From the IMG/VR virus record IMGVR_UViG_3300027917_004314: 64,000 nt of DNA. One strand, written 5' to 3'. The notes below the pieces were generated by a model. It did no database searches and was not told where the DNA came from. It worked only from the letters and a program-made list of their open reading frames with translations. Source of the stretch: a virus (lineage: Duplodnaviria > Caudoviricetes). Position 1 is the stretch's first letter. Each line of letters starts with the position of its first letter. Positions 33,458 to 58,018 of the stretch are shown here, one piece after another. A program made the position numbers and the translations under genes.

Positions 33458-33488
33458 AAAGGGAGAGCAGAAATGCTCTCCCTTTTTT
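33458..33488 (+). terminator. Rho-independent terminator ending the tail module
   Basis: AAAGGGAGAGCA-GAAA-TGCTCTCCC-TTTTTT: 9-bp stem, GNRA loop, U6 tract. Confidence 0.9.
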
Positions 33489-33794: not shown

Positions 33795-36700
33795 ATGAAA
33801 ATTAGAGTTCACGGGATGTTAGGAACTTATCACTCATGGTCGCTAACTACACAGGCTTTAGTACGTGCTATGGTAAAGATCGGCGGCCATGAAATATTCC
33901 TAAAATCTACAAACAATCTAGAGAACTTTCCAGAAGATTTGAAAGATTTGTTGCTTCCGGGATATCATGGTGCCCTAGTTCAAGGGGATGCTAATTATAT
34001 TGATGGGCAAGGCAATGAAATAACAATTACGCCGAAAAATAGAGAACCGGAAATCAGAGACTTAAACAGGCCTTATGATTTGGAATTTTGTTATACGATC
34101 CCCTACCAACATCCAAGACGATTTTATCCAGAATCAAGGTGTAGGGCCGTTGTATGGAACTTTGAAAGCTCTATTTTACCACCTGGCTGGCATTATTATT
34201 CCAGAGCAGTCGACTATATGCTTCCATCTAGCCAATTTTCATACGACATATTCGCTCAAAATGGTATACCAGAAGAAAAACTTGTTGTGGTGCCACACGG
34301 TGTAGACACCAACATATTTAATCCTGATATTCCTCCGTTCAAGTTAAAGACTAAGAAACGGGTGAAATTATTACATAATGCTATTCCACATCACAGAAAG
34401 CTACATGAAAGGGTTATTAAAGGATATATCGATACGTTTACTGGCAATGACGATGTATGCTTAGTGCTCAAAACAAAATTTGTGAAGCCACCCAAGGAAA
34501 AGCCGTTTGAAGTAGATGTTAAAGAAATTCTTACCAAAGCTTTGCAGGGAAAAAGAAACCCACCAGAAATCGAAGTAATTAATGACAAATTTATTTCAAA
34601 TATAGGGTCTCTTTATACTGCCTGTGATGCTGTAGTTAGTATGAGTTCCACTGAAGGGTTTTGCCTGTTGCCAGGTACGCCCGTGGATACAATTTATGGC
34701 ACAGAGTCAATAGAAAATTTATCAACAATAGATCAGGTTTATACTCACCTTGGAAACGCAAAATATATTTCATCGGTAATGAGCCGTAATATTGACGAGG
34801 AAATTGTAAAGATGAGACGTCATGGCTGTGATGATTATTTTTGCGGTACGATCAACCATCCTCATTTGGTAGTGAAAAGAAAAAACAAGAAATTTTCTAC
34901 GTTAAAAAAAGACATGAGAGAAGGAAAACTTGAAACACAATGGGTTGGTTTAAAAGACGTGGAAAAAGGAGATTTAGTGGTTATTGCTAAGCCTAAATTA
35001 AATTTTCCGCCCCAAACAACAATAGATTTAAAAGATCATCTGCTTTGGTCAACTTTTGAAGAAAAAAACGGCAAAATTTGGCTGAAAGGAAGTTTTAAAA
35101 AAAGCAGTGGAAATAGTTCTCTGCGCGAAATAGCAAAACGTGCGGGTTGTTCTATTCAACATGCGTCGCAAGTGGTAAATGTGGGCACACATTCTAATAC
35201 CGATTTTAACAAAAATATAATTAAAATAGCAAAAGAGCTTAAATATGTAAAACCACAGCCAATTAAGTTCAATCGGTTTATTAAAATTGACAGTGTATTG
35301 GCCCAATTTTTTGGGTTATATATAGCAGAAGGCTCGGTTTCCGGCCTGAACGCGAAATCTTTTAACATAAATTTGCACGATGATGAAAATTATGGGAAGG
35401 ATTTAGTTAGATCCATATGTAAGCGTTTTGATATGCCGTTTTGTGAAATTAAATATGGAAAAAAATACCAACTTTCTGGGTCAAGTCACATTTTTTCCAT
35501 ACTACTCTCTCGCTTATTTGGTTCTAACGCACTTAACAAAATGATACCGTTTGCTATGTTAAACACTTCTTTTATTAAAGATATTATTCATGGCATATTT
35601 TATGGCGATGGAAGCGCGTCCAGAGGAAAATATTCATTTTCAACGTCTTCTCGCACATTGCGCGACCAAATTTTTCAAGTACTTTTGCACCATGGCATTT
35701 TTTCTAATTTAAGAACAGACAGACGTAGGGAACATGAAAACTACATAATAGAAATAGCTAGCACCTATAACGAAAAATTCAGTGACTTTGCAAATCCAGT
35801 AAAATACACTAAAAAAATAAAATTATTGAATACAAACAAAAACAGTGCAATAATTGAGGGTCGTGACCATTTCCTAGTTCCAGTCAGAGATGTTTATAAA
35901 GAGCACCACAAAGGTACAGTATATAACTTGGAAGTGGAAGATGACTCAACTTTCAATTCCTTAGGTATGAGCACACACAACTGTCTCCCTCTCCTCGAAG
36001 CTCTGGCGTGCGAAAAACTAATAATTGCCCCCAGACACGGCGGCCAACTCGATTTTCTTAACGACGAAAATTCTATACTAGTAGACACAGGTGAAATGCA
36101 GGCTCCCGCAACCATGCAGTATTGGGGTTATATGAAAGGCGCCGTTGTAGGCGATCCAGATATAGAACATTACAAGGAAATGTTAAAACACGTATATGAC
36201 AATCTTGACGAAGAAAAAAATAGAATACGTGAACCGGCTAAGAAAACCGTGAACAAGTTCACCTGGGAAGCTGCCGCGCAAATGATTTTGGATCTCCCAA
36301 TACCCGAAAAAAGTTTTAAGCTTCATAGCAAAAAAAGAGTTCTATATATAGTTCCATATAAGATGGTTGGTGGTGGGGAAGTGTGGATTAGAGAAGCCAT
36401 ATCCAGGTTAGATAGAGCAAAATATGAGCCACATGTGGCCTTGGTTTCGGGCTCGTCGCCCGAATTAGAAAAGCTGTTTGAAGGATTGGGCATAACCATA
36501 GAAGATTTATCTAACAATCTAACAAAAGATGGTGCTTTAAAGTGCTTAATAGAAGCCGGCAACTACGATATTATTCATTTTTATAATAGTGTTGGCGTGT
36601 ATAGAATAATACGAGAAGCGTGTCGTCAAATGGGGTTTCGTGGTCGTGTCGTAGAAACCGTACACAGTGAATTATTGTGGGCTGATTCTATGTCTAAAGT

Positions 36701-37400
36701 GTCCTCACGCGAGCAATTTGTTAGTGTTATTGCGGCTGTATCAAACGCTATGGCACGGAAACTTCTAAGCATGGGCAACAAAAATGTGGTATCTATGCCC
36801 CAACATGTAGATTGGAACAGGTTTCTTAATCTTGAAAGATCTAAAGATATTTTAGAAAAACACAGCATTCCAAAAAATTTTGTTGTAGGTTTTGTTGGCA
36901 GATTGTCCCCAGAAAAAAACATACCGGCTTTACTAGAGTGCGCTAGAATACTTCGCGACGTGTCTTTTGTTGTGATCGGAGACGGGCCTCAAAAAGAGCC
37001 TCTTAGCCAGATAGCCAGAGAGCTAAAGAATGTTTTCTTTATGGGCCGAAGGACAGATTTAGAACGCTGGTACCCAGCATTTGATCTGCTAATGTTGCCT
37101 TCAACAATGGAAGGTATGCCATTAGTGGTATTAGAAGCCATGGCTTCGGGAACACCAGTTGTGGCGTCAGACGTCGGCGCAATGTCGGAAGTTGTTTTAG
37201 ATGGCATTACCGGTAGTTTGGTGTGGAACCCAAAGAATCCGGTTTTATTTGCTAATGTGATTAAATCCTTTAAAACAAATAGCGTCTTGTGGAATAGGTG
37301 CTCTGCTAACGCTAGAATGGTGGCTGCATCTCTCAGAGAAAAATCTAATGGATTTAATATAAATCATCTTTATAGAATGCTTGAAGGAGGGGGCAACTAA
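33795..37400 (+). CDS. Tandem GT4 (GT-B) glycosyltransferase containing an intein
   Basis: Module 1: VVVPHGVD, CLVLKTK, EGF/CLPLLEALAC after splicing. Module 2: VGFVGRLSPEKN, EGMPLVVLEAMASGTPVVASDVG. Confidence 0.9.
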   Translation: MKIRVHGMLGTYHSWSLTTQALVRAMVKIGGHEIFLKSTNNLENFPEDLKDLLLPGYHGALVQGDANYIDGQGNEITITPKNREPEIRDLNRPYDLEFCYTIPYQHPRRFYPESRCRAVVWNFESSILPPGWHYYSRAVDYMLPSSQFSYDIFAQNGIPEEKLVVVPHGVDTNIFNPDIPPFKLKTKKRVKLLHNAIPHHRKLHERVIKGYIDTFTGNDDVCLVLKTKFVKPPKEKPFEVDVKEILTKALQGKRNPPEIEVINDKFISNIGSLYTACDAVVSMSSTEGFCLLPGTPVDTIYGTESIENLSTIDQVYTHLGNAKYISSVMSRNIDEEIVKMRRHGCDDYFCGTINHPHLVVKRKNKKFSTLKKDMREGKLETQWVGLKDVEKGDLVVIAKPKLNFPPQTTIDLKDHLLWSTFEEKNGKIWLKGSFKKSSGNSSLREIAKRAGCSIQHASQVVNVGTHSNTDFNKNIIKIAKELKYVKPQPIKFNRFIKIDSVLAQFFGLYIAEGSVSGLNAKSFNINLHDDENYGKDLVRSICKRFDMPFCEIKYGKKYQLSGSSHIFSILLSRLFGSNALNKMIPFAMLNTSFIKDIIHGIFYGDGSASRGKYSFSTSSRTLRDQIFQVLLHHGIFSNLRTDRRREHENYIIEIASTYNEKFSDFANPVKYTKKIKLLNTNKNSAIIEGRDHFLVPVRDVYKEHHKGTVYNLEVEDDSTFNSLGMSTHNCLPLLEALACEKLIIAPRHGGQLDFLNDENSILVDTGEMQAPATMQYWGYMKGAVVGDPDIEHYKEMLKHVYDNLDEEKNRIREPAKKTVNKFTWEAAAQMILDLPIPEKSFKLHSKKRVLYIVPYKMVGGGEVWIREAISRLDRAKYEPHVALVSGSSPELEKLFEGLGITIEDLSNNLTKDGALKCLIEAGNYDIIHFYNSVGVYRIIREACRQMGFRGRVVETVHSELLWADSMSKVSSREQFVSVIAAVSNAMARKLLSMGNKNVVSMPQHVDWNRFLNLERSKDILEKHSIPKNFVVGFVGRLSPEKNIPALLECARILRDVSFVVIGDGPQKEPLSQIARELKNVFFMGRRTDLERWYPAFDLLMLPSTMEGMPLVVLEAMASGTPVVASDVGAMSEVVLDGITGSLVWNPKNPVLFANVIKSFKTNSVLWNRCSANARMVAASLREKSNGFNINHLYRMLEGGGN
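34662..35981 (+). mobile_element. Intein with LAGLIDADG homing endonuclease (440 aa)
   Basis: Starts CLLPGTPV (block A); GTINHPHLV (block B); FFGLYIAEGS and HGIFYGDGS (LAGLIDADG); VYNLEVEDDSTF...THN followed by +1 Cys. Confidence 0.95.
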
Positions 37401-42266: not shown

Positions 42267-43217
42267 ATGAAAGTTTATTGCATTATAACAACAGTAGCTT
42301 TTTGTCAGCTATCCTGTCCATTCTGTAGGGCTGGTAATGCACTTAGGAAAGAATATGATTTTGTTAAGCGTGGCAAGATGTCTGCAGAAACATTGACAAA
42401 TATAATGGACAAGGTTCCTTTTACGAAGTGTAACTACCACAATTGGGGAGAACCGCTGCTGCATCCGAACATAGTGGAATTTGTGGAGGAAGGTAAGCGA
42501 AGAAATAAAATGATAGAGCTGCACACCAATATGCAGAAAATGACACCAGAAACGGCCGAAGGCTTTGTTAAGGCGAAAATAGATATAATTTCAGTATCTT
42601 GTGATGGTACGACTCAAGAAGTGTATGAAAAATATCGTGTTGGTGGGAACTTAGAAAAGGTGATTAAGGGCGCAGAGTTACTTGCTCATTTCAAAAAAAA
42701 GCATAACTCAAAGTTTCCACACATCAGGTGGCAAATGGTTGTAAACAAACATAATCAACACCAAGCCGATGAGTTCAAACGCTTTGCATTAAGCCATGGG
42801 GCTAACACTGCGGTATGTGCTGATATGTATTCTCAGACTCCCGAGGGTTGGTTTAAAATTAAGGAGTATGCTACAACCGACAAAAGGTGGAAAGCGGTTA
42901 AAGTAATAGGAACGGTTACAAAATGTAATGAGCCAAATCACCGGTTTGCCGTAGACTGGAATGGTGATGTATATACGTGTTGCAACACAGTAGGGATAGA
43001 AAGTTATAAAATGGGCAACATAAACGAGCAGAGTTTTGAAGAGATTTGGCATGGAGACAAATATGAATATGTTAGAAGGTTTTGTAAAACTGGCAAACCA
43101 GAAGACAATGGTTTCGAAATACAATGCCACGCATGTTTTGACAAATTCCCTAATGATAAGATGAGAAATGGTGATATGTGGGCACGTTGTTTAGCTGCTC
43201 GTAAAAACGCGGAGTAA
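42267..43217 (+). CDS. Radical SAM / SPASM-domain protein
   Basis: CQLSCPFC, WGEPLLHP, HTN, SCDG; C-terminal C...VDWNGDVYTCC..MGNINEQSFEEIW...C..C. Confidence 0.9.
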   Translation: MKVYCIITTVAFCQLSCPFCRAGNALRKEYDFVKRGKMSAETLTNIMDKVPFTKCNYHNWGEPLLHPNIVEFVEEGKRRNKMIELHTNMQKMTPETAEGFVKAKIDIISVSCDGTTQEVYEKYRVGGNLEKVIKGAELLAHFKKKHNSKFPHIRWQMVVNKHNQHQADEFKRFALSHGANTAVCADMYSQTPEGWFKIKEYATTDKRWKAVKVIGTVTKCNEPNHRFAVDWNGDVYTCCNTVGIESYKMGNINEQSFEEIWHGDKYEYVRRFCKTGKPEDNGFEIQCHACFDKFPNDKMRNGDMWARCLAARKNAE

Positions 43218-46627: not shown

Positions 46628-47560
46628 ATGTCTGGCAAACTAGCGTCTATACTTATTCCAACGCGTAATCGATTTGATAGCTTACTTAAAGCTATCAACT
46701 CTATCGTGAACACCACCAAAGATTTGTCTAGAGTAGAAATTCTAATTAGATTTGATGAAGACGATGAAAGTTCAATCTCTAGAATAAAAGAGTTGCCAAC
46801 AGATGAAATCGATATTAATATAATAATCGGTAAACGATACAAATATGAAGAGTTGCACCGATATGTTAATGAGATGTGTGAGGAAACGAAGGGAGAATTT
46901 ATAGTTTGGTTTAACGACGATTGTATTATACAAAGCAATGGCTGGGATGACATCATTGCAGAATATATAGGGAAAACAATTTGTTTTTATCCCAACAATA
47001 AAAAAACTGGGTCCGGGAATATTTTCCCGATAATAAGCAGAAAAATTTATGAAACGTTGGGGCATTTCTCTTTATCTCAGCAGGTGGATACTTGGCAGGC
47101 ACATGTGTGTAATAAAGCTGGTCTGGAAATTAGAAGAGATGATCTTGTATTTATACATAATAGAAAACAATCATATGTGTCAGATGAAAACAGACAATCG
47201 ATTCTAAACAAAACACGTCGAGTATGGAACAAAACCAAGAAGAAACGACTGGAAGATGTGGAAAAATTGAAAAAGAAATTTGGAAGGGCAGAAAAACCAG
47301 CGGCAGATAAAAAGAAAAAAACTGCAGATAAAAAGAAAGTTGATCAAAAAACGACAAAAGCACAGAAAAAGGTTGAAGATGCAAGAAAAGCCGCAAGAGC
47401 GGCTCGCTGGAGAAAAGATGTAGCAAGAAAAGAAGCTGCAAAGAAGAAAGCTGAAGAGACGGAAAAAATAGAAGAAGCTAAAAAGGCTGCTCGTGCGGAG
47501 AGATGGAAAAAAGCCGCCGCTAAAAAGGAAGCTGAGGCGGCAAGAAAAAAGAAGAAATAG
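46628..47560 (+). CDS. GT2-like glycosyltransferase with Lys/Ala-rich C-terminal tail
   Basis: SILIPTRNR, EILIRFDEDD, FIVWFNDDC; last ~95 aa KKAARA.RW.K repeats. Confidence 0.8.
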   Translation: MSGKLASILIPTRNRFDSLLKAINSIVNTTKDLSRVEILIRFDEDDESSISRIKELPTDEIDINIIIGKRYKYEELHRYVNEMCEETKGEFIVWFNDDCIIQSNGWDDIIAEYIGKTICFYPNNKKTGSGNIFPIISRKIYETLGHFSLSQQVDTWQAHVCNKAGLEIRRDDLVFIHNRKQSYVSDENRQSILNKTRRVWNKTKKKRLEDVEKLKKKFGRAEKPAADKKKKTADKKKVDQKTTKAQKKVEDARKAARAARWRKDVARKEAAKKKAEETEKIEEAKKAARAERWKKAAAKKEAEAARKKKK

Positions 47561-47570
47561 GGGCAAACAG

Positions 47571-48416
47571 ATGAGATATTTAATCTTAGGTTCAGAGGGA
47601 CAGATAGGTAAACACTTAGTTCAATATGTGCGTCGACAAGGGCACGAAGCCATTGAATACGATATTAGGAGAGACAGACATCAAGACCTAAGACTGTTCG
47701 GGCATGAGAGAGATAGAAAACGACACATCTTAGAAAAAAGTGTTGCAAACTGTGACTTTATATTCTTTTTGGCGTGGGATGTTGGCGGGAGTAAATATCT
47801 CTCTGGTGCAGAGTCGTCATTTGGTTTTATCCATAATAATACGGCAATAATGAATGAGACATTTTTCATGCTCAAAAAATACAAAAAGCCATTCATATTT
47901 ACATCTAGCCAGATGGCAGCGATGGCACATTCGCCCTATGGCAACACTAAACTGGTAGGAGAAAGATTTACTAGAACGCTTAATGGCATATTTGTCAGAT
48001 TATGGAATGTGTATGGATACGAAAAAAAGGTAGATGAAAGATCACATGTAATTACCGATTTTGTTAACATGGCTTTAAACGACAGTATAATTAAGATGCG
48101 AACAGATGGTGCTGAGACCAGACAATTTTTGTACGTAGAAGATTGTTGCGAGGCCTTGTTTGTTTTAAGTAATTTATATGACGAAATGCCAAGGTGCAAT
48201 GAATTTCATGTTTCAAGTTACGAATGGACCTCCATAGAAAAAATTGCTGAAATAGTATCTACACTATGTAGTTGTAAATATATTAAAGGAATTTCAAAAG
48301 ACGACGTACAAATGGCTATCCAGCACGACCCAAACAAAAATATTTTAGAATACTGGAAACCTAAAATTTCAATTGTTGAGGGAATCAGTTGCATTATCAA
48401 AAAAATGAAAGGTTAA
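47571..48416 (+). CDS. NAD-dependent epimerase/dehydratase (extended SDR)
   Basis: MRYLILGSEGQIG, FFLAWDVGG, YGNTK, RLWNVYG, RQFLYVEDC; ATG 47571 (track 47493). Confidence 0.8.
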   Translation: MRYLILGSEGQIGKHLVQYVRRQGHEAIEYDIRRDRHQDLRLFGHERDRKRHILEKSVANCDFIFFLAWDVGGSKYLSGAESSFGFIHNNTAIMNETFFMLKKYKKPFIFTSSQMAAMAHSPYGNTKLVGERFTRTLNGIFVRLWNVYGYEKKVDERSHVITDFVNMALNDSIIKMRTDGAETRQFLYVEDCCEALFVLSNLYDEMPRCNEFHVSSYEWTSIEKIAEIVSTLCSCKYIKGISKDDVQMAIQHDPNKNILEYWKPKISIVEGISCIIKKMKG

Positions 48417-49108
48417 CTGGGCTAATAGAAAATAAACGTGTAGTTTTGGTGGGTCCTGCACAATATTTGGTTGGTAGGGGTTTAGGCAACGCAATAAACG
48501 AATATGATACCGTATGTAGGGTGAACTATATGGCGCCGTCTAATTTTGTTTCAGATTATGGCAACAGAACTGATATAATGTTTTACAATTGTGCTACTTT
48601 AAGCTTGGAACAAATGGAGCAGCATTTTGAAAAATACCCCGATTTCACTGAAAATCTTAAACTTACAGTATGTCCAGTAGTTAAGGGGTTAGGGCCTGAC
48701 AAGTGGACGGAATGGCCTTCAGATTATATAGCACCGGTTGTCACAAATTTTAATAGCATAAATAAATATGGAATTGATTTTCATTGGATTGGAATGTCAA
48801 ACTATAGATATTTATTTGATGTAATAAACTGTCGTGAGCCTAGTTCTGGACCATTATCGATGAAGATAATATTAGAACACAACCCTAAAGAATTTTTTAT
48901 CACTGGGATAACCTTTTATCTTGATGGAATTGAAAATTCGTATTTTAAAGATTATGCTACAGAAGCGAATGGGTATCGTGGCCCAGGTCATCCACAAAAA
49001 AAACAAATAGAATTTTTTAAAAAATGTGTCCTTAGAAAAAATGTGAAAATTGACTCACATTTAAATAGCTTATTAAAAATAAAACATAGTAACGTAAAAA
49101 TCATATAA
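48389..49108 (+). CDS. GT29 sialyltransferase-like protein
   Basis: Sialylmotif L-like RVVLVGPAQYL..RGLGNAINEYDTVCRVN...FVSDYGNRT; sialylmotif S-like PSSGPLSMKIIL...FFITGITFY. Confidence 0.7.
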   Translation: MHYQKNERLTGLIENKRVVLVGPAQYLVGRGLGNAINEYDTVCRVNYMAPSNFVSDYGNRTDIMFYNCATLSLEQMEQHFEKYPDFTENLKLTVCPVVKGLGPDKWTEWPSDYIAPVVTNFNSINKYGIDFHWIGMSNYRYLFDVINCREPSSGPLSMKIILEHNPKEFFITGITFYLDGIENSYFKDYATEANGYRGPGHPQKKQIEFFKKCVLRKNVKIDSHLNSLLKIKHSNVKII

Positions 49109-49126: not shown

Positions 49127-49720
49127 ATGGATTTCAGCGTAAACTATTTGATCGATAAAACAATTAACGGAACGGGAGATATTGATGCCCACCTAATGAC
49201 ATTGTTTTCGCTTGCTTTGAGCATAAAAGCAAAAAATATGGTTGAATTGGGCGTGCGGCTCGGTCATACCACAACTCCTCTATTACTAGCAGCTCAAAAA
49301 CTAAATGCAAAGCTTTATTCTGTTGATATTTTAAATCGGGTGTGGGACATTCCTTTCCCAGAAGAGTTGACGAGACACTGGGAGTTCCACGAAAAAGATT
49401 CCGTTAAATTTTTAAATCAATGGGACAAGAACACACCCATTGATTTAATTTTAATAGACGATTTACACACCTACGAACACGTCGCCCAAGAGCTTAAAAT
49501 AATAAGAGATTTGGTTACTCCGAGTAGCATTGTATTATTACACGACTTAATGTATGCCAATTGGGAACCAAAATATCATACGGACAGAGTAGCCACAGGT
49601 CAGTGGGCTAATGGTGGTCCCTATAGAGCCGTAAGCGAGCTGGATAAAGAACTTTGGGAATTTTCTACAATCCCCTCTTGTAACGGCCTAACGATTTTAC
49701 GGAAAAGGGGTGATAAATGA
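49127..49720 (+). CDS. Class I SAM-dependent methyltransferase (Methyltransf_24-like)
   Basis: VELGVRLGHTT, LYSVDI, IDLILIDDLHTYEHV, IVLLHD. Confidence 0.8.
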   Translation: MDFSVNYLIDKTINGTGDIDAHLMTLFSLALSIKAKNMVELGVRLGHTTTPLLLAAQKLNAKLYSVDILNRVWDIPFPEELTRHWEFHEKDSVKFLNQWDKNTPIDLILIDDLHTYEHVAQELKIIRDLVTPSSIVLLHDLMYANWEPKYHTDRVATGQWANGGPYRAVSELDKELWEFSTIPSCNGLTILRKRGDK

Positions 49721-51698: not shown

Positions 51699-52471
51699 CA
51701 AAGAAAATTTCCACTATGGATGACTATAAATGCGGAGCAATAAACGATGGCATTCAAAACATTGCCTATGCGACAGAATATCATAACAGAAGGAAAGATC
51801 AGAGAAGGTCGTTTTCGTTGAATTTACTATCTCGTATCGGATTTTTGTCAAAAAACATGAATTTTATATCTTTATGTTGTGGATTTGCCGGCGAAGAGTC
51901 TTTGTTGGTGCCACACTTCGCAAACACGGTATTATTGGACCAGCATCCAAAAACTATTGATTTGACCAAACAAATATACACAGCCTTCTGTTTGACTGAA
52001 AGGGTGGAATTTATTGCTAAGAGTGTTCAGGAATATGTCCCGGAAAAGAAATTTAATATAATTTATACTTCTAGCCCATCTGATTGGATGAAAAACCCAG
52101 TAGGACCAATGCCTGAGCACTATGCGAATTTTATATCAAAGCACCTACATAATTGTGGAGTTTTCATTGCAAGACTTTATGGTGGTTCATATACTCATAA
52201 TGGAAACAAAGAACATCTAAATGATGAAAATTTTTGTAGCGATATGAATGAATACATTAGTAAATACGGACTAGAGATAATTGAATGGGAAGTTTGTCCT
52301 GAGCGCATAGAATCGAATGTTTTAATAATCGGGAAGTCAGCTGCACTGCCGATAATAAAATTTGATCAATTAGATAGTGGTGTAAGCTCTTGGACGCAGC
52401 CAAAACCCGCCCATTTTGCGTTGAGATCTGCTCACTCTATCCTTAAACAACAAGGGGATTTAGAAAAATGA
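51695..52471 (+). CDS. Putative class I SAM-dependent methyltransferase
   Basis: ISLCCGFAGE motif I-like, VLLDQ, KKFNIIY, LHNCGVFI; ATGA overlap (track 51683). Confidence 0.6.
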   Translation: MTKKISTMDDYKCGAINDGIQNIAYATEYHNRRKDQRRSFSLNLLSRIGFLSKNMNFISLCCGFAGEESLLVPHFANTVLLDQHPKTIDLTKQIYTAFCLTERVEFIAKSVQEYVPEKKFNIIYTSSPSDWMKNPVGPMPEHYANFISKHLHNCGVFIARLYGGSYTHNGNKEHLNDENFCSDMNEYISKYGLEIIEWEVCPERIESNVLIIGKSAALPIIKFDQLDSGVSSWTQPKPAHFALRSAHSILKQQGDLEK

Positions 52472-53844
52472 AAATATTGTTAATAGCATACGACAACGGC
52501 TCTCATCTTAATTTGTTTCCAATAGGAATTGGGTATATCGCTTCAGTTCTACTGAAAAAGGGTCATAAAGTAGTAATATATAATCAAGATATATACCATC
52601 ATTCTCCGAAACATTTGACAGATTTTCTTGATAATCATAATTTTGATGCTGTTGGTATGGGGGTTGTTGGTGGATATTATCAGTACAAAAAATTATTAGA
52701 AATTTCGAACGCCATTAATAATTCCAAAAAGCGTCCTCTATATATAATAGGGGGTTATGGACCAACACCAGAGCCAGAATTCTTTTTAAAAAAAACTCGG
52801 GCGGATATTGTTGTTATGGGTGAAGGCGAAGATACTATTGTTGAGCTATTTAGTGGCAAAAATTTGTATGATGTTAATGGAATCGCTTTTAGAGACCAAA
52901 ATGAGATAGTTATTAATGAGCGAAGAAAGCTGATCCGTGATTTAGACAGCATTCCTTTTCCAGCCTATGAACTTTTTCCGATGGAGATTTATAGGCTAAA
53001 GAGGGTCCCAAACACGACCCTCACAGACTTTGTTGTACCGATGGTTTCTGGTCGGGGTTGCAAGTTTAAGTGCAATTTTTGTTATAGAATGGATAAGGGA
53101 GCGCGTGAGAGAAGCAATGAACATATTGTAGAAGAAATGAAAATGCTTAAAACAGATTATTCTATAACAGTAGTAGATTTTTGTGATGATTTACTTATGT
53201 CATCTAAAAATAGAGCCATAGCGTTGAGCCAAGAAATAATAAGTGCGAACCTAAATATGCGGTGGCATTGTAATGGTAGGCTTAATTACGCCACCCCTGA
53301 TGTGATAAAAATCATGAAGGAGGCTGGCTGCGTGTATATAAACTACGGAATAGAGTGTTTTGATGACGGTGTTTTAAAAACCATGAATAAAGCTCTAACG
53401 ACAGAACAAATAGTAAAAGGTATTAAAGCCACTTTAGAACATGGAGTAAGTCCAGGGTTTAACATTATCTTTGGAAATATTGATGAAGATGAAAAAACGC
53501 TTAAAAAAAGTGTAGATTTTCTATTGGAATATGGCGATTGGGCAGAAATGAGAACTATAAGACCTGTAACTCCGTATCCTGGCTCTCCTTTATATTATTA
53601 TGCCCTAGAAAAGGGTTTGTTAAAGGATGCCGAAGATTTTTATGAGAATAAACATATTAATTCGGATCTACTGACAGTTAATTTTACCAAATTGTCGGAT
53701 GAAGACTTTTATAAATATTTATACGAAGCAAATAAAAAATTGATCAGGGCTTATTTGGATAAAAAAATGGAACTAATAAAAGGAGATATGGATAAGTTAT
53801 ACTGTGATTTAAATGTCAATTTTAGGGGATTTCGAGATGTATGA
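52468..53844 (+). CDS. Cobalamin-binding radical SAM protein (class B methyltransferase-like)
   Basis: N-terminal PIGIGYIASVL, IIGGYGPT, VVMGEGE; SGRGCKFKCNFC; FCDD; GIE; PYPGS.LY. Confidence 0.9.
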   Translation: MKILLIAYDNGSHLNLFPIGIGYIASVLLKKGHKVVIYNQDIYHHSPKHLTDFLDNHNFDAVGMGVVGGYYQYKKLLEISNAINNSKKRPLYIIGGYGPTPEPEFFLKKTRADIVVMGEGEDTIVELFSGKNLYDVNGIAFRDQNEIVINERRKLIRDLDSIPFPAYELFPMEIYRLKRVPNTTLTDFVVPMVSGRGCKFKCNFCYRMDKGARERSNEHIVEEMKMLKTDYSITVVDFCDDLLMSSKNRAIALSQEIISANLNMRWHCNGRLNYATPDVIKIMKEAGCVYINYGIECFDDGVLKTMNKALTTEQIVKGIKATLEHGVSPGFNIIFGNIDEDEKTLKKSVDFLLEYGDWAEMRTIRPVTPYPGSPLYYYALEKGLLKDAEDFYENKHINSDLLTVNFTKLSDEDFYKYLYEANKKLIRAYLDKKMELIKGDMDKLYCDLNVNFRGFRDV

Positions 53845-53887: not shown

Positions 53888-55336
53888 ATGGAATTACGTT
53901 ATAAAATGGGGCAAAAATACAAGCAGGGTCAAATTGTTGAAAAAGAATGTTTTAGTGGTAATAAAGCCTTGGCAGTATGGTGTTTATCAATGCGAAATAA
54001 ATATAATATTAAAACTGTAATTGAGACTGGAACAAACTTCGCCAAAACTACAGAGTTTTTTGCTAATGCTTTCGAGAAGGTATATACTATAGATATACAA
54101 GAAGAATTCACTAAAATGGCTAGAAAAAAGTTTTCTGGAAAAGAAAATGTAGAGTGTATATGTGGCAATTCTTCTAAGGTGTTAGCTTCTCTTTGTGGCA
54201 AAATACCAAAAGATGAAGTCGTTTTATTATTTCTAGATGCTCATGGTAATTATGAAAAAGATTTAATTGATGTGGGTGTTAAAAATCGGTCTAAAAAAAG
54301 TCTTGAATATTATCCAAAAAACGCCACACAGTTTAATCCCATATGTGTGGAACTTGACACTATTTCTCAACATTTGTGTGGGAGGTGTGTGCTTATTATA
54401 GATGACATACCAAGTCCATATTGTAATCCCAACGTGCAATTTGGACAGTTCAAAACAAGCCAATCAGGTTTTCGTAACATAGTGTCTAAGTGTTTTCAAA
54501 AAAAATATAAAATGAGAGATACTATGGTGCGTCTAGGAAATAAAAGAAAATCTTCTTTGATTATAGAGCCGGATAATATAAAAAGGGGTGTGTTTATTAC
54601 TGCAAGAGTGGACTCAAAGAGGTTGCCAAGAAAGCATCTCTTAAAAATCGACGGCAAACATTGCATAGAACATGTTATGGAAAGAGTTAAAAAATCAAAA
54701 CGAGCAGATAAGATAGTGTTATGTACTACCACATTAGATCAAGATAAGAGGCTCTGTGAAATTGCGAAAAAGTATAATATTAGTGTTTTTAGGGGAAGTG
54801 TTGTTGACAAGTTAGACAGGTGGAGGGGCGCCACTGAAAAATATGATATTGATTTTTTTGTAACTGCAGATGCTGATGATTTGTTCTGTGATCCTGAATT
54901 AATTGACCTAGCTTTTGATCAGTACGATAGGACTAAGGCAGATTTTATAGAATGGGACCAAGATAATTTTATATGTGGTGCTTTCACATATGGGATTTGT
55001 TCTGATGCTTTACGTTTTGTGTGCGAAAACAAACAAACAAACAACACTGAAATGATGTGGGTTTTCTTTGATAAAAATCATTTCAAAAAAGAAAAATTAC
55101 AAAATGTGCCGAAAATATTTATGCGGCCGGAGATACGAGCCACACTAGATTACGAAGAAGATTTTGAATTTTTTAAGAAAATATATTCTTACATGGAAAA
55201 TAAAGAATTTACTTTAAAAGACGTTGTCTCTTTAATAGACGACCACCCAGAAATTATAAAAATAAATAATGCTAGACACCACGATTGGAAAAAAAATCAA
55301 GAAAAAGAGTTAAAACATGTCAACGAAAATCAATAA
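53888..55336 (+). CDS. Fusion: SAM methyltransferase-like domain + acylneuraminate/SpsF-like cytidylyltransferase
   Basis: N: VIETGTNF..TT, VYTID, LFLDAH. C: ITARVDSKRLPRKHLLKIDGK..IEHV..R, FRGS..DKLDR, TLDYEEDF. Confidence 0.8.
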   Translation: MELRYKMGQKYKQGQIVEKECFSGNKALAVWCLSMRNKYNIKTVIETGTNFAKTTEFFANAFEKVYTIDIQEEFTKMARKKFSGKENVECICGNSSKVLASLCGKIPKDEVVLLFLDAHGNYEKDLIDVGVKNRSKKSLEYYPKNATQFNPICVELDTISQHLCGRCVLIIDDIPSPYCNPNVQFGQFKTSQSGFRNIVSKCFQKKYKMRDTMVRLGNKRKSSLIIEPDNIKRGVFITARVDSKRLPRKHLLKIDGKHCIEHVMERVKKSKRADKIVLCTTTLDQDKRLCEIAKKYNISVFRGSVVDKLDRWRGATEKYDIDFFVTADADDLFCDPELIDLAFDQYDRTKADFIEWDQDNFICGAFTYGICSDALRFVCENKQTNNTEMMWVFFDKNHFKKEKLQNVPKIFMRPEIRATLDYEEDFEFFKKIYSYMENKEFTLKDVVSLIDDHPEIIKINNARHHDWKKNQEKELKHVNENQ

Positions 55337-56504
55337 AAAATATGCGGGTAAAGAATTAGATTACCTGACTAAAGTATTAAATTCAGAAAGTTGGTCGTCT
55401 ACTGAAGGTTCTTGGACCAACACCCTAGAATCTAAATTTGCTGAAAAGTTTAATGCCAAATATGCGATTGCAATGAATAGTGGCACCTCGGTTTTACACG
55501 CTGCGTTGGTTGCTTGTGGTATTCGACCAGGCGATGAGGTTATTACACCAGCACTAACTGTTTTTATGGATACAAGTTCTATTATACACTGCAATGCTAT
55601 TCCTATTTATGCTGATGTACAAAAAGATACATTTAATATAGATCCAGCAGATGTGCGTAAAAAAATAACTCCAAAAACCAAGGCCATTATAGCCGTATCA
55701 TTATATGGACTAGAATGTGATATTCCTGCTTTGATGAAAATAGCTAATCAATATGACTTATATTTGATAGTAGACAACGCTCAACATATGGGAAAACACA
55801 AGGGTCATATCACCACATATTCATTTGAAAACAGCAAACATATTTCCTGCGGGGAAGGTGGTATTGTTATTACAAACAGCCAAGCTATGGCTTCGTGTAT
55901 GAGAAAACTAAGTAATCATGGTTTTAAAAATAGTACTGCCAAAGAAGGTAGAATTAAATTAAATTTAGATGAGTTTCAAAGTCCACACTATAAAAGACAC
56001 AGCATGATAGGATGGAATTATAGACTTTCAGAATTCTGTGCTGCTGTGGCTTTGGCACAACTAGAAAGAGTTGACGAATTAGTAGCTCGTAGAAGAAACG
56101 TGGCTAAAGCGTATATGGATGTAATAAATGAGGAACACTCAAGTTTAATACCACAGTTCCACAATTTAGATCATACGTATTGGACTTTTGCGGTTAGAAT
56201 GTATAACTGGAAAGCCTTTCGTAAACTATATGTTTCCAACGGAGGTGATGGTTTTTATGGTGCTTGGTCTGTTCCGTATTTAGAACCAGCGATGCAGAAT
56301 AGAATGTTTGTCAGGATTAATCCCAAAATATATAAAGATGTCAAATACGAGGGCAAAATTTGCCCTGTAGCGGAAAGTATTCAACCAACAATAGCGCAGT
56401 TTAAAACAAACTATAGAGTCGAATCGGAGATTAACGCTCAAATTGGAGCTTTCAGAAAAACCATAAGGAACTTGAAAGCGCCCCTAGGAGGTTTTTATAA
56501 ATGA
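55317..56504 (+). CDS. DegT/DnrJ/EryC1/StrS family sugar aminotransferase
   Basis: NSGTSVLHAAL...PGDEVI, VDNAQ, YSFENSKHISCGEGG with intact Lys, GWNYRL. Confidence 0.9.
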   Translation: MSTKINKKYAGKELDYLTKVLNSESWSSTEGSWTNTLESKFAEKFNAKYAIAMNSGTSVLHAALVACGIRPGDEVITPALTVFMDTSSIIHCNAIPIYADVQKDTFNIDPADVRKKITPKTKAIIAVSLYGLECDIPALMKIANQYDLYLIVDNAQHMGKHKGHITTYSFENSKHISCGEGGIVITNSQAMASCMRKLSNHGFKNSTAKEGRIKLNLDEFQSPHYKRHSMIGWNYRLSEFCAAVALAQLERVDELVARRRNVAKAYMDVINEEHSSLIPQFHNLDHTYWTFAVRMYNWKAFRKLYVSNGGDGFYGAWSVPYLEPAMQNRMFVRINPKIYKDVKYEGKICPVAESIQPTIAQFKTNYRVESEINAQIGAFRKTIRNLKAPLGGFYK

Positions 56505-57340
56505 AATTGGAAAATTTTCCTTATTTTATAGGAGAAATTGGCATTAATCATAATGGAGATTTACAGATTGCCAAGCAGCTGATAGATGCCATCTCTGCGT
56601 GTGGTTGGCACTGTGCCAAATTTCAAAAAAGAAATCCAGACGTGTGTGTCCCTGAAGAGCAAAAAATAAAAAAGCGAGCCACGCCGTGGGGAGAGATTAC
56701 TTATTTAGAGTATAAACACAAAGTGGAATTTCGGAAAAAAGAATATGAATATATAGATATGTACTGCAGAGAAAAGCCGCTTGATTGGTCTGCTTCTGTT
56801 TGGGATTTAGACAGCCTTAATTTTATTATAGATTTTGACGTGCCCTTTATTAAAATTGGTTCAGCGATGTTAACCAATAATGATTTAATTATAGAGGCTG
56901 CAAAAACTAAAAAACAGCTTATAGTTTCAACTGGAATGTCGACTTTAGAGGAGATAGATAACTCATTTAATTTAATTCTTAAACACGGGCTTATACCAAT
57001 TTTGATGCATACAAATGCTAGTTATCCGACTCCACCTGAGGAGCTAAATCTTAAAATAATTCCTATGCTTATAGAGAGGTATAAGTGTGTTGTGGGGTAT
57101 TCTGGGCATGAAAAAGATCTAGAACCTACTGTGATTGCTGCTGCTCTTGGTGCAAAAGTAATTGAAAGACACATTACCCTTGATCACAACATGTGGGGTA
57201 CAGACCAAAAAGCAAGTCTAGAAATAATGGGCATGGATATACTTAAAAAAAGAATAGATGCTATAGATACAATTTTGGGGTCCGATGAAAAATATATAAC
57301 TCCCAGTGAAATATCTATAAGAAAAAAACTCCGAGGTTAA
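56501..57340 (+). CDS. neuB: N-acetylneuraminate (ulosonic acid) synthase family, lacking C-terminal SAF domain
   Basis: IGEIGINHNGD, AKFQKR, IKIGS, VSTGMS, HTNASYP, GYSGHE, GAKVIERHITLD; only 279 aa. Confidence 0.85.
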   Translation: MKLENFPYFIGEIGINHNGDLQIAKQLIDAISACGWHCAKFQKRNPDVCVPEEQKIKKRATPWGEITYLEYKHKVEFRKKEYEYIDMYCREKPLDWSASVWDLDSLNFIIDFDVPFIKIGSAMLTNNDLIIEAAKTKKQLIVSTGMSTLEEIDNSFNLILKHGLIPILMHTNASYPTPPEELNLKIIPMLIERYKCVVGYSGHEKDLEPTVIAAALGAKVIERHITLDHNMWGTDQKASLEIMGMDILKKRIDAIDTILGSDEKYITPSEISIRKKLRG

Positions 57341-57343
57341 AAA

Positions 57344-58018
57344 ATGAAGATCATTATAACAGGCTCCGAAGGAATAATCGGACAGAAGCTAGTTCCATTA
57401 CTTACAGGTAATGGTCATAAAATTGTTAAGTGCGATAGGGATTTGGGGCATGATCTTTCCGATAAAAAATGCGTGGAGAGTTTTTTTGAAACACACCGTG
57501 CCGATGCCCTGATAAATCTATTCGCTCTGGATGATAAATTAACAAATAACACAAAATCTGACACGGTCTGGGACTTTTCTTTAGATTTATTCATGGAATA
57601 TATGGAAACAAATGTAGTATCGCTTTTTTCTGTGTGCCGAGAATTTGCCAAACATAATGATTCTGGGAGTATAATAAATTTTTCGTCGATTTATGGAGTA
57701 GTTTCTCCTGATTATTCGTTATATGAGTTAAACAAACATAAACATATTGGCTATTGTGTGTCTAAAGCAGCAGTTCTTCAAATGTCAAGATATTTAGCAG
57801 TTCATTTAGTGCCGTGTAGAGTAAACAGTATCGTTTGTGGGGCAATTGAAAACAAGCAAGAGTTAAAATTTGTTGAACGTTTTTCCAAGCGAGTTCCAAT
57901 TGGCAGAATGATGAGTGCCGATGAATTGGTTGGTTTGGTAGAATATCTCTGTTCTAATAAGTCATCTTATTGTACTGGCGGAGAATTTACTATTGATGGT
58001 GGATATACCATATGGTGA
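57344..58018 (+). CDS. Short-chain dehydrogenase/reductase
   Basis: IITGSEGIIG, GSIINFSSIYG, YCVSKAA, RVNSI..G, GRM, YCTG..FTIDGGYT. Confidence 0.85.
   Translation: MKIIITGSEGIIGQKLVPLLTGNGHKIVKCDRDLGHDLSDKKCVESFFETHRADALINLFALDDKLTNNTKSDTVWDFSLDLFMEYMETNVVSLFSVCREFAKHNDSGSIINFSSIYGVVSPDYSLYELNKHKHIGYCVSKAAVLQMSRYLAVHLVPCRVNSIVCGAIENKQELKFVERFSKRVPIGRMMSADELVGLVEYLCSNKSSYCTGGEFTIDGGYTIW

What the first reader, a model, noticed from the sequence alone, without database searches (positions are those of the whole stretch)
48389..49108. GT29 (eukaryote-type) sialyltransferase-like gene paired with a ulosonate pathway
Both sialylmotif L (RVVLVG...GLGNAINEYDTVCRVN...F.SDYGNRT) and S (PSSG...) patterns are recognisable. 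Typical bacterial sialyltransferases belong to other families (GT38/42/52/80). With NeuB-like synthase and cytidylyltransferase nearby, the phage could synthesise, activate and transfer a sialic-acid-like cap.
Basis: partly seen in the sequence, partly recalled or inferred. Interest (0 to 1): 0.7.

Follow-up and report, generated by a model that had tools for sequence, protein, structure and literature searches.

The report
Phage GT29-like CMP-ulosonate sugar transferase
A huge uncultured marine-sediment phage carries a real, stripped-down relative of animal sialyltransferases, and it sits next to genes that make and activate a sialic-acid-like sugar; relatives of this gene are common in uncultured phages but have never been studied.

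Summary

It is not "eukaryote-type" in architecture. It has no membrane anchor, no stem and neither of the two conserved disulfide cysteines. Its C-terminal half aligns by sequence only to CstII, and its near-invariant His201 falls on CstII's His188.

It belongs to a large family: 928 clusters at 50% identity and 81 IMG/VR viral loci. Atlas clusters with known taxa are mostly Uroviricota. PF00777 was rare in the bacterial genomes sampled (2 of 401).

In 68 of 84 loci the gene lies within 10 kb of a cytidylyltransferase, usually adjacent. One locus encodes the two as a single fused protein. Clades track the neighbouring synthase, and the window's protein sits in the NeuB-linked clade.

It is therefore most likely a cytoplasmic transferase of a CMP-activated nonulosonate. 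The exact sugar and the acceptor (virion glycan or host surface) are not shown.

Bacterial GT29 was published in 2018, and databases already auto-label such phage proteins. I rate it a new member of a known kind, of moderate interest.

This scan had already flagged the same gene, on the same DNA, from an overlapping window.

The parts
48389..49108 (+). GT29-like CMP-ulosonate transferase, 239 aa, TTG start. L motif is about residues 17-65, S motif about 151-177, candidate catalytic base is His201.
47568..48416 (+). Extended-SDR (NAD-dependent epimerase/dehydratase family) gene. It overlaps the GT29-like gene by 28 nt and is its conserved upstream partner in relatives.
   Evidence: PF01370 at 77 bits. 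Homologues with E 1e-68 to 1e-123 lie directly upstream of, or within about 650 nt of, the GT29-like gene in L001, L003-L006, L008, L012, L019, L022, L023 and L026; in L010 a methyltransferase gene lies between them.
49127..49720 (+). CmcI / rhamnosyl O-methyltransferase-like methyltransferase, 19 nt downstream of the GT29-like gene.
   Evidence: PF13578 at 62 bits and PF04989 at 30 bits. The same neighbour appears in L001, L010 and L013. Protein P0063 is a natural fusion of this methyltransferase type with a GT29-like domain.
53888..55336 (+). Fusion protein. An N-terminal methyltransferase-like domain of about 225 aa is joined to a C-terminal CMP-ulosonate synthetase (cytidylyltransferase).
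   Evidence: PF02348 at 55.9 bits on residues 236-360. KdsB and PseF models score far below their cut-offs. The N-terminal domain is a separate gene next to the GT29-like gene in L001 and L002.
55317..56504 (+). DegT-family PLP aminotransferase (PseC/LegC-like).
   Evidence: PF01041 at 253 bits. PseC 192 bits and LegC 186 bits, both below their cut-offs.
56501..57340 (+). NeuB-family ulosonate synthase, 279 aa, without the C-terminal SAF domain.
   Evidence: PF03102 at 218.5 bits. TIGR03569 NeuB_NnaB scores 219 bits over model positions 2-274 of 329, against 155 bits for PseI.
57344..58018 (+). Short-chain dehydrogenase. It is the last gene of the conserved run cytidylyltransferase, DegT, NeuB, SDR.
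   Evidence: PF13561 at 95.8 bits. A PtmA-like hit scores 66 bits, below its cut-off. The same gene order is seen in L010, L012, L013 and L023.
33458..33485 (+). Strong terminator-like hairpin (12-bp stem followed by a T run). It separates the tail module from the glycan island, which runs from 33795 to at least 64000.

Best explanation
The gene encodes a soluble, cytoplasmic glycosyltransferase with the sialyltransferase fold (GT-A variant 2, GT29-like).

Inferred mechanism:
- The N-terminal Rossmann half, which carries sialylmotif L, binds the CMP part of a CMP-activated ulosonic acid.
- The PSSG...GITFY segment (sialylmotif S) and Tyr177 contact the phosphate and sugar.
- His201, in the near-invariant G-H-x-Q motif, deprotonates the acceptor hydroxyl in an inverting, metal-independent transfer, as His188 does in CstII and the VS-motif His does in GT29.

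Inferred donor: the product of the phage's own cassette, made up of the SAF-less NeuB synthase, the DegT aminotransferase, the SDR and the methyltransferase-cytidylyltransferase fusion. That product would be a nine-carbon, probably aminated and methylated, Leg/Neu-like nonulosonate rather than plain Neu5Ac.

Inferred acceptor: a glycan built by the roughly dozen other soluble glycosyltransferases of the island. It is most plausibly carried on phage particle proteins, which are made in the same cytoplasm.

What is shown: homology, fold, conserved residues, and gene linkage and fusion with the CMP-sugar synthetase.
What is inferred: catalytic activity, donor identity and acceptor.
For: Family and fold:
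- PF00777 is above its cut-off in this protein and is the only Pfam family hit in 65 of 65 family members.
- The model is high-confidence (pLDDT 90.9).

Catalytic residues:
- A family profile hits ST6Gal1 at 6e-11, ST3Gal1 at 4e-10 and CstII at 2e-8.
- The C-terminal profile puts His201 on CstII His188 and Tyr177 on CstII Tyr156.
- His201 is kept in at least 90% of 65 diverse members.

Link to a CMP donor:
- A cytidylyltransferase lies within 10 kb in 68 of 84 loci, mostly adjacent and on the same strand. This was checked with PF02348 on three records.
- L064 encodes one 474-aa protein with the GT29-like domain (14-251) fused to a cytidylyltransferase (253-472).
- An Atlas cluster carries both PF02348 and PF00777.

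Donor class:
- The window's protein falls in a supported clade (99/97) of 18 rows. Thirteen of these have NeuB within 10 kb, and four of the other five are cut short by a contig end.
- KdsA-linked rows form other clades.
- NeuB models score above PseI models for the window's synthase.

Cytoplasmic action:
- None of the 30 island proteins has a membrane-spanning segment, and there is no Wzx, Wzy or priming transferase.
- The island follows the tail module on the same strand.
Against: - No activity, donor or acceptor has been measured for this protein. I found no assay of any prokaryotic or phage member in the papers searched.
- HMMER does not align sialylmotifs III and VS to GT29 proteins. The position five residues after the His is Gln, not the Glu of the GT29 VS motif.
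- The pathway in the window is incomplete for Neu, Leg or Pse. It has no hydrolysing 2-epimerase or PseG and no N-acetyltransferase, and NeuB lacks its SAF domain. I could not search the other roughly 400 kb of the genome.
- The cytidylyltransferase's best, sub-threshold, matches are KdsB-type.
- Nothing ties the enzyme to virion proteins except position and solubility.
Confidence: 0.7

Rival explanations
1. Same enzyme chemistry, but the acceptor is a host cell-surface glycoconjugate (LPS or LOS core, capsule, flagellin, pilin or S-layer glycan). The phage would re-decorate the infected cell to block superinfection or mask receptors, and would not glycosylate its own particle.
For: - The characterised bacterial relatives by fold, the GT42 enzymes CstI and CstII, sialylate LOS (PDB titles; established knowledge).
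- Serotype-converting phage glycosyltransferases are well known. One island protein weakly hits a GtrB-like PHROG.
- A soluble transferase could act on lipid-linked intermediates at the inner face of the membrane.
Against: - None of the 30 island proteins has a membrane segment, and no flippase, polymerase or priming transferase is present.
- The island directly follows the tail and baseplate genes on the same strand.
- A lytic huge phage gains little from changing the surface of a cell it will lyse. This last point is inference.
Confidence: 0.25
2. The donor is CMP-Kdo or another eight-carbon ulosonate rather than a NeuB-derived nonulosonate. The enzyme would then be a Kdo-type transferase, as has been proposed for plant GT29-like proteins.
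For: - Other clades of the same family sit directly beside KdsA-type synthases (PF00793 at 197-220 bits) and a cytidylyltransferase.
- The window's cytidylyltransferase scores best, though far below cut-off, against KdsB models.
Against: - The window has a NeuB-family synthase (218 bits), and no KdsA was found in the island.
- The protein belongs to the clade whose members with enough flank almost all have NeuB. The KdsA-linked rows are in separate clades.
Confidence: 0.1
3. The enzyme adds the ulosonate directly to Ser, Thr or Tyr side chains of a protein, as Maf flagellin glycosyltransferases do, instead of capping a glycan.
For: - Earlier notes of this scan report an Asp-Gly-Tyr motif enriched on the virion surface proteins (e1-5390248, not tested here).
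Against: - PF01973 is not hit by this protein or by the 65 members scanned.
- The island holds about a dozen other glycosyltransferases, which argues for a multi-sugar glycan with a terminal cap.
Confidence: 0.15
4. It is not a glycosyltransferase at all. It would be a pterin-kinase-like (MptE) or SteA-like protein that only shares the fold, or a dead enzyme.
Against: - Sequence profiles hit only sialyltransferases.
- The catalytic His and the L and S motif residues are conserved across 65 members.
- The gene is consistently adjacent to, and once fused with, a CMP-sugar synthetase.
Confidence: 0.03

Closest known systems
Bacterial GT29-like sialyltransferase homologues (Petit et al. 2018, PMC5811610)
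   Same: PF00777-type catalytic domain with recognisable sialylmotifs. No transmembrane domain and no L/S disulfide cysteines. Mostly from marine organisms.
   Different: The 2018 set was 23 sequences from Proteobacteria, with no virus or phage mentioned. Here the gene is in a phage of about 461 kb. Its family has 928 clusters at 50% identity and at least 81 IMG/VR viral loci. I could not align it directly to the published sequences.
Mammalian GT29 sialyltransferases (ST3Gal1 2WNB/2WNF, ST6Gal1 6QVT/4JS1, ST8SiaIII 5BO9, ST6GalNAc2 6APL)
   Different: Only 14-19% identity in those structural alignments. The phage protein is 239 aa against catalytic domains of about 270-320 aa, with no Golgi anchor or stem. 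Val18 and Lys167 replace the disulfide cysteines. The His-x4-Glu of the VS motif reads His-x4-Gln. The donor is probably not CMP-Neu5Ac.
Campylobacter jejuni CstII / CstI (GT42)
   Different: The GT42 Pfam model (PF06002) is not hit, whereas PF00777 is. GT29 structures score about 3 Z units higher. CstII acts on LOS in a cellular pathogen, not in a phage.
Auto-annotated viral GT29 proteins in public databases
   Same: Same fold and Pfam family. Examples are UniProt A0A6J5NLG3 'Glycosyl transferase family 29 [uncultured Caudovirales phage]', the ChoanoV1 GT29, and ESM Atlas clusters named GT29 with 83-100% viral members where taxa are known.
   Different: These are labels without study. In the papers I searched, none describes the phage family, its linkage to CMP-ulosonate genes, or any activity.
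Virion glycosylation by phage-encoded glycosyltransferases
   Same: Soluble phage glycosyltransferases encoded next to structural genes. This is the proposed context for the enzyme.
   Different: As far as I know that system involves no ulosonic acid or GT29-like enzyme. The link here is positional only.

Membership tests
CAZy GT29 / Pfam PF00777 | Score above the Pfam gathering cut-off | tested here: met
   33.3 bits against 23, E 4.3e-8. 65 of 65 family members hit PF00777 and nothing else.
CAZy GT29 / Pfam PF00777 | Sialylmotif L (CMP-binding Rossmann segment) | tested here: met
   Residues 17-91 align to profile 56-131. D40, R44, N46, D56, G58 and T61 match ST6Gal1's HDAVLRFN...DVGTKTT.
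CAZy GT29 / Pfam PF00777 | Sialylmotif S (P-S-x-G ... Y-G-F) | tested here: met
   The family profile aligns PSSG...ITGITF with PSTG...DLYGF of ST3Gal1 and PSSG of ST6Gal1. G154 is invariant; G173 and F176 are nearly invariant (invariant in A1).
CAZy GT29 / Pfam PF00777 | Motif III (aromatic H/Y-Y-aromatic-acidic) | tested here: inconclusive
   A conserved Y-F-x-G-Y lies between S and the His, but no tool aligned it to GT29 motif III.
CAZy GT29 / Pfam PF00777 | Motif VS with catalytic His (H-x4-E) | tested here: inconclusive
   A near-invariant G-H-P-Q-x-x-Q contains His201, and the position five residues after the His is Gln. The His aligns by sequence to CstII His188. The structural alignment spans the GT29 C-terminus, but residue pairs were not available.
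CAZy GT29 / Pfam PF00777 | Conserved disulfide between a Cys in motif L and a Cys in motif S (animal enzymes) | tested here: not met
   Val18 and Lys167 occupy these columns. Bacterial GT29 also lacks them (PMC5811610), so this defines the eukaryotic subgroup, not the whole family.
CAZy GT29 / Pfam PF00777 | Type II membrane anchor and stem region (eukaryotic enzymes) | tested here: not met
   The protein is 239 aa and its catalytic domain starts at residue 16. The highest 19-residue hydropathy is 1.07.
CAZy GT29 / Pfam PF00777 | GT-A variant 2 sialyltransferase fold | tested here: met
CAZy GT29 / Pfam PF00777 | Inverting transfer from a CMP-activated sialic or ulosonic acid | not testable with these tools
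   Only indirect support: adjacency to a cytidylyltransferase in 68 of 84 loci and one natural fusion.
CAZy GT42 (CstI/CstII, Pfam PF06002) | Match to the family's sequence model | tested here: not met
   No PF06002 hit at E up to 10 for this protein, nor at 0.01 for 65 relatives. HMMER's filters drop most matches above about E 0.1.
CAZy GT42 (CstI/CstII, Pfam PF06002) | Catalytic His188 and phosphate-binding Tyr156 equivalents | tested here: met
   The C-terminal profile aligns G-H with I-G-H188 and F-Y with F-Y156 of CstII (E 0.007).
Maf / MptE-like (Pfam PF01973) | Match to PF01973 | tested here: not met

The most novel reading that the evidence does not exclude
Huge phages and many smaller uncultured phages carry a self-contained module that makes, activates and transfers an ulosonic acid. 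With it they cap glycans on their own particles with a sialic-acid-like (nonulosonate or Kdo-type) sugar. The minimal, anchor-less GT29-like transferases of this mostly viral family lie between GT29 and GT42. They could represent the pool from which eukaryotic sialyltransferases arose.
Probability: 0.2. Interest if true: 0.8.

Novelty: new member of a known kind. Interest (0 to 1): 0.5.

Why it matters
Sialyltransferases of family GT29 are usually treated as a eukaryotic invention. A 2018 study proposed a proteobacterial origin from 23 sequences. This gene belongs to a much larger pool that, where taxa are known, is mostly viral, and this pool keeps the GT29 core in its simplest form. A proper tree could therefore now test where GT29 came from.

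For phage biology, a conserved cassette of synthase, CMP-activating enzyme and transferase beside tail genes predicts that some phages display acidic, sialic-acid-like sugars. Such sugars would affect adsorption, stability and recognition.

For enzymology, these are small soluble enzymes without disulfides. They may accept unusual CMP-ulosonates, which would make them useful tools.

One distant member sits in a cultured phage (Stenotrophomonas phage DLP_6), so the idea can be tested at the bench.

Tried and rejected
- **PHROGs:** no family for this protein.
- **NCBIfam:** none.
- **tblastn against 50,697 deposited phage genomes.** The window protein and P0028 gave no match. Megablast of 40-60 kb also gave none. 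More distant family members gave only weak partial hits.
- **Whole genome of the window:** not held. An exact 42-mer was not found in JGI metagenome contigs. The rest of the roughly 461-kb phage could therefore not be searched for the missing pathway enzymes.
- **GTDB scan.** It used a single peptide pattern and found one MAG contig. This is not a measure of absence.
- **Iterated NeuB profile.** It drifted into KdsA-type synthases. This was detected with PF00793 and PF03102 on whole records and corrected by a two-model classification. The raw count of 33 NeuB loci is withdrawn; the corrected counts are 16 NeuB loci and 13 KdsA loci.
- **Sequencing runs:** no RNA holder listed.
- **Promoter scan:** no more sites than in shuffles.
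- **Model coordinates** are not exposed, so I could not measure active-site geometry or residue-level superposition on GT29.
- **No complex prediction** was run, because I claim no protein-protein binding.
- **Literature.** Searches for phage or jumbo-phage sialyltransferases and phage nonulosonate pathways returned nothing relevant.

Full report
**What is there.** The window has all its long ORFs on the + strand. It starts inside a tail-sheath gene (PHROG tail sheath) and runs through very large structural genes. A strong terminator-like hairpin lies at 33458-33485. After it comes a glycan island of about 30 kb that reaches the end of the window. The island holds:
- several GT2 genes, a GT4 gene, a GT47-like gene and a CgeB-like gene;
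- methyltransferases and two radical-SAM enzymes;
- two DegT aminotransferases and GDP-mannose dehydratase;
- a NeuB-family synthase and a cytidylyltransferase.

The protein's own contig is 460,921 bp and comes from marine-sediment metagenomes. No whole genome is held for it.

**The observation.** ORF 48389-49108 encodes 239 aa.
- PF00777 (GT29) scores 33.3 bits against a cut-off of 23 (E 4.3e-8) over the sialylmotif L region.
- phmmer against PDB sequences returns only ST6Gal1.
- The TTG start is secure. An in-frame TGA sits three codons upstream, GAGGG lies 6 nt before the TTG, and homologues start with ATG at the same column.
- The gene overlaps the upstream SDR gene by 28 nt.
- Thirty-two close homologues of 235-257 aa show 26-67% identity. 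Their conserved L-motif and S-motif residues show that this is a real, selected gene.

**Fold.** An AlphaFold model built on the homologue alignment has pLDDT 90.9 and pTM 0.91.
- Foldseek's first 29 PDB hits are all mammalian GT29 enzymes: ST8SiaIII, ST6GalNAc2, ST3Gal1 and ST6Gal1, with E down to 4e-8. Campylobacter CstII follows.
- CstII reaches 11.3, CstI 11.0, an MptE-type pterin kinase 11.0 and SteA 11.1. The next unrelated protein scores 4.4.
- The protein therefore has the sialyltransferase (GT-A variant 2) fold and is nearest to GT29.

**Motifs and catalytic residues.** A profile of 65 diverse members hits ST6Gal1 (6e-11), ST3Gal1 (4e-10), CstII (2e-8) and ST8SiaIII (7e-6).
- The alignments cover motif L and motif S. 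They show Val18 and Lys167 at the columns of the two disulfide cysteines of animal enzymes.
- A profile of the C-terminal half alone finds only CstII and CstI. It aligns the family's near-invariant G-H (His201 here) with I-G-H188 of CstII, and F-Y (Tyr177) with F-Y156.
- From established work on CstII, His188 is the proposed general base and Tyr156 contacts the CMP phosphate. This is my knowledge, not tested here.
- GT29 motifs III and VS could not be aligned by sequence. The His is followed at +5 by a conserved Gln rather than Glu.
- The protein has no hydrophobic segment.
- These traits match what Petit et al. 2018 reported for 23 bacterial GT29 sequences: sialylmotifs kept, no transmembrane domain, no L/S cysteines (PMC5811610).
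- "Eukaryote-type" is therefore the wrong label. This is the prokaryote/virus-type minimal form, with a C-terminal half that looks GT42-like.

**Distribution.**
- An exhaustive HMMER search of 1.84 billion cluster representatives finds 928 clusters at E <= 1e-3 and 181 at <= 1e-10.
- A pattern scan of IMG/VR confirms 81 viral loci, on contigs up to 316 kb. A few are giant-virus MAGs.
- ESM Atlas neighbours are clusters auto-named GT29. Members with known taxa are 83-100% viral (Uroviricota) in most of them.
- BFVD holds [quoted passage not shown].
- PF00777 was over its cut-off in 2 of 401 sampled genomes of one bacterial phylum and in 0 of 14 control genomes.
- Deposited phage genomes almost lack the family. 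The only hits were weak ones to two huge-phage MAGs and one cultured phage, Stenotrophomonas phage DLP_6. Its gene AAY80_202 is annotated hypothetical, passes PF00777 (31.8 bits) and matches the family profile at 97.7% probability. It sits beside a methyltransferase and a nucleotide-sugar-transferase-like gene.
- I found no paper describing phage GT29-like enzymes.

**Link to the ulosonate pathway.**
- In the nearest viral relatives the gene order is SDR, GT29-like, cytidylyltransferase, then either NeuB directly or DegT-NeuB-SDR. The genes are often directly adjacent.
- In the window, extra genes have been inserted between the transferase and the cytidylyltransferase.
- With an iterated profile, 68 of 84 loci have a cytidylyltransferase within 10 kb, usually adjacent and on the same strand. 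PF02348 confirmed this in the three records checked.
- L064 encodes a single 474-aa protein with a GT29-like domain followed by a cytidylyltransferase domain. An Atlas cluster shows the same combination.
- Other natural fusions join the domain to a second GT29-like domain, to GT2, to GT8, or to methyltransferases. These include the CmcI type that lies 19 nt downstream in the window.
- The neighbouring synthase is NeuB-type in 16 loci and KdsA-type (PF00793 at 197-220 bits) in 13.
- On a maximum-likelihood tree of 64 domains these labels cluster: 12 changes against 28 for shuffled labels.
- The window's protein lies in a 99/97-supported clade of 18 rows. Thirteen have NeuB nearby. Of the other five, four end at a contig edge and L022 (14.4 kb of a 16.8-kb contig) has no NeuB within reach.
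- The family therefore looks like a set of CMP-ulosonate transferases with clade-specific donors, and this member belongs to the nonulosonate branch.

**Which sugar.**
- The window's synthase matches NeuB/NnaB better than PseI (219 against 155 bits). It lacks the SAF domain.
- The aminotransferase scores equally as PseC or LegC. The cytidylyltransferase is fused to a methyltransferase-like domain that is a separate gene next to the GT29-like gene in L001 and L002.
- I found no hydrolysing 2-epimerase, PseG or acetyltransferase in the island.
- The donor is best described as an undetermined, probably aminated and methylated, Neu/Leg-configured nonulosonate. Whether the phage makes it from scratch is open.

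**Which acceptor.**
- All 30 island proteins are soluble, with no flippase, polymerase or priming transferase. The island follows the tail module.
- This favours cytoplasmic glycosylation of proteins, most simply the phage's own particle proteins, with this enzyme adding the terminal acidic sugar. That is inference.
- Earlier notes of this scan report an Asp-Gly-Tyr motif enriched on the virion surface proteins as a possible attachment site. I did not test that.
- Modification of host envelope glycans remains a serious rival.

**Verdict.** Bacterial GT29 is published and viral copies are already auto-labelled, so this is a new member of a known kind. What is new here:
- the size and viral bias of the family;
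- its conserved adjacency and fusion with CMP-sugar synthetases;
- the split into NeuB-linked and KdsA-linked clades;
- a cultured-phage handle for experiments.

I score interest at 0.5.

Noticed in passing
window 33795-37400 (+): The island's first gene, a GT4 glycosyltransferase of 1201 aa, carries Hint, intein-splicing and LAGLIDADG homing-endonuclease domains in its middle. An intein inside a glycosyltransferase is unusual.
   Followed up: no
window 56501-57340 (+): The NeuB-family synthase is only 279 aa and stops at model position 274 of 329, so it lacks the C-terminal SAF domain. Viral relatives have similarly short NeuB ORFs.
   Followed up: partly
window 53888-54562 (+); L001:9268-9990: The N-terminal methyltransferase-like domain (about 225 aa) of the cytidylyltransferase gene is a free-standing gene in a related phage. 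There it lies between the SDR gene and the GT29-like gene.
   Followed up: partly
L015:5310-8354, L017:8390-11527, L020:7817-11503: Viral ORFs of 1015-1229 aa contain two tandem GT29-like domains plus long unassigned N- and C-terminal regions. These loci have no cytidylyltransferase or synthase within reach.
   Followed up: no
L025, L031-L039, L051 (IMG/VR contigs): A distant clade of the family sits directly next to a KdsA-type Kdo-8-phosphate synthase (PF00793 at about 200-220 bits). In most of these loci (all but L025 and L034) a cytidylyltransferase was also found. This suggests phage-encoded Kdo-type transferases with a GT29-like fold.
   Followed up: partly
L089 = KU682439.2 116909-117700 (Stenotrophomonas phage vB_SmaS-DLP_6, AAY80_202): A cultured phage's 'hypothetical protein' passes PF00777 (31.8 bits). 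It is flanked by a methyltransferase, a 'nucleotide-diphospho-sugar transferase' and a GT4 gene. It looks unrecognised in the record.
   Followed up: partly
window 46628-47560 (+): A GT2 glycosyltransferase ends in a Lys/Ala/Glu-rich, highly charged tail of about 110 residues. The tail gives a spurious Borrelia_P83 hit. Its purpose is unknown.
   Followed up: no
window 42267-43217 and 52468-53844 (+): The sugar island contains two radical-SAM enzymes: one SPASM-type and one B12-binding methylase or HpnJ-like. They hint at unusual C-methylation or rearrangement of a sugar.
   Followed up: no
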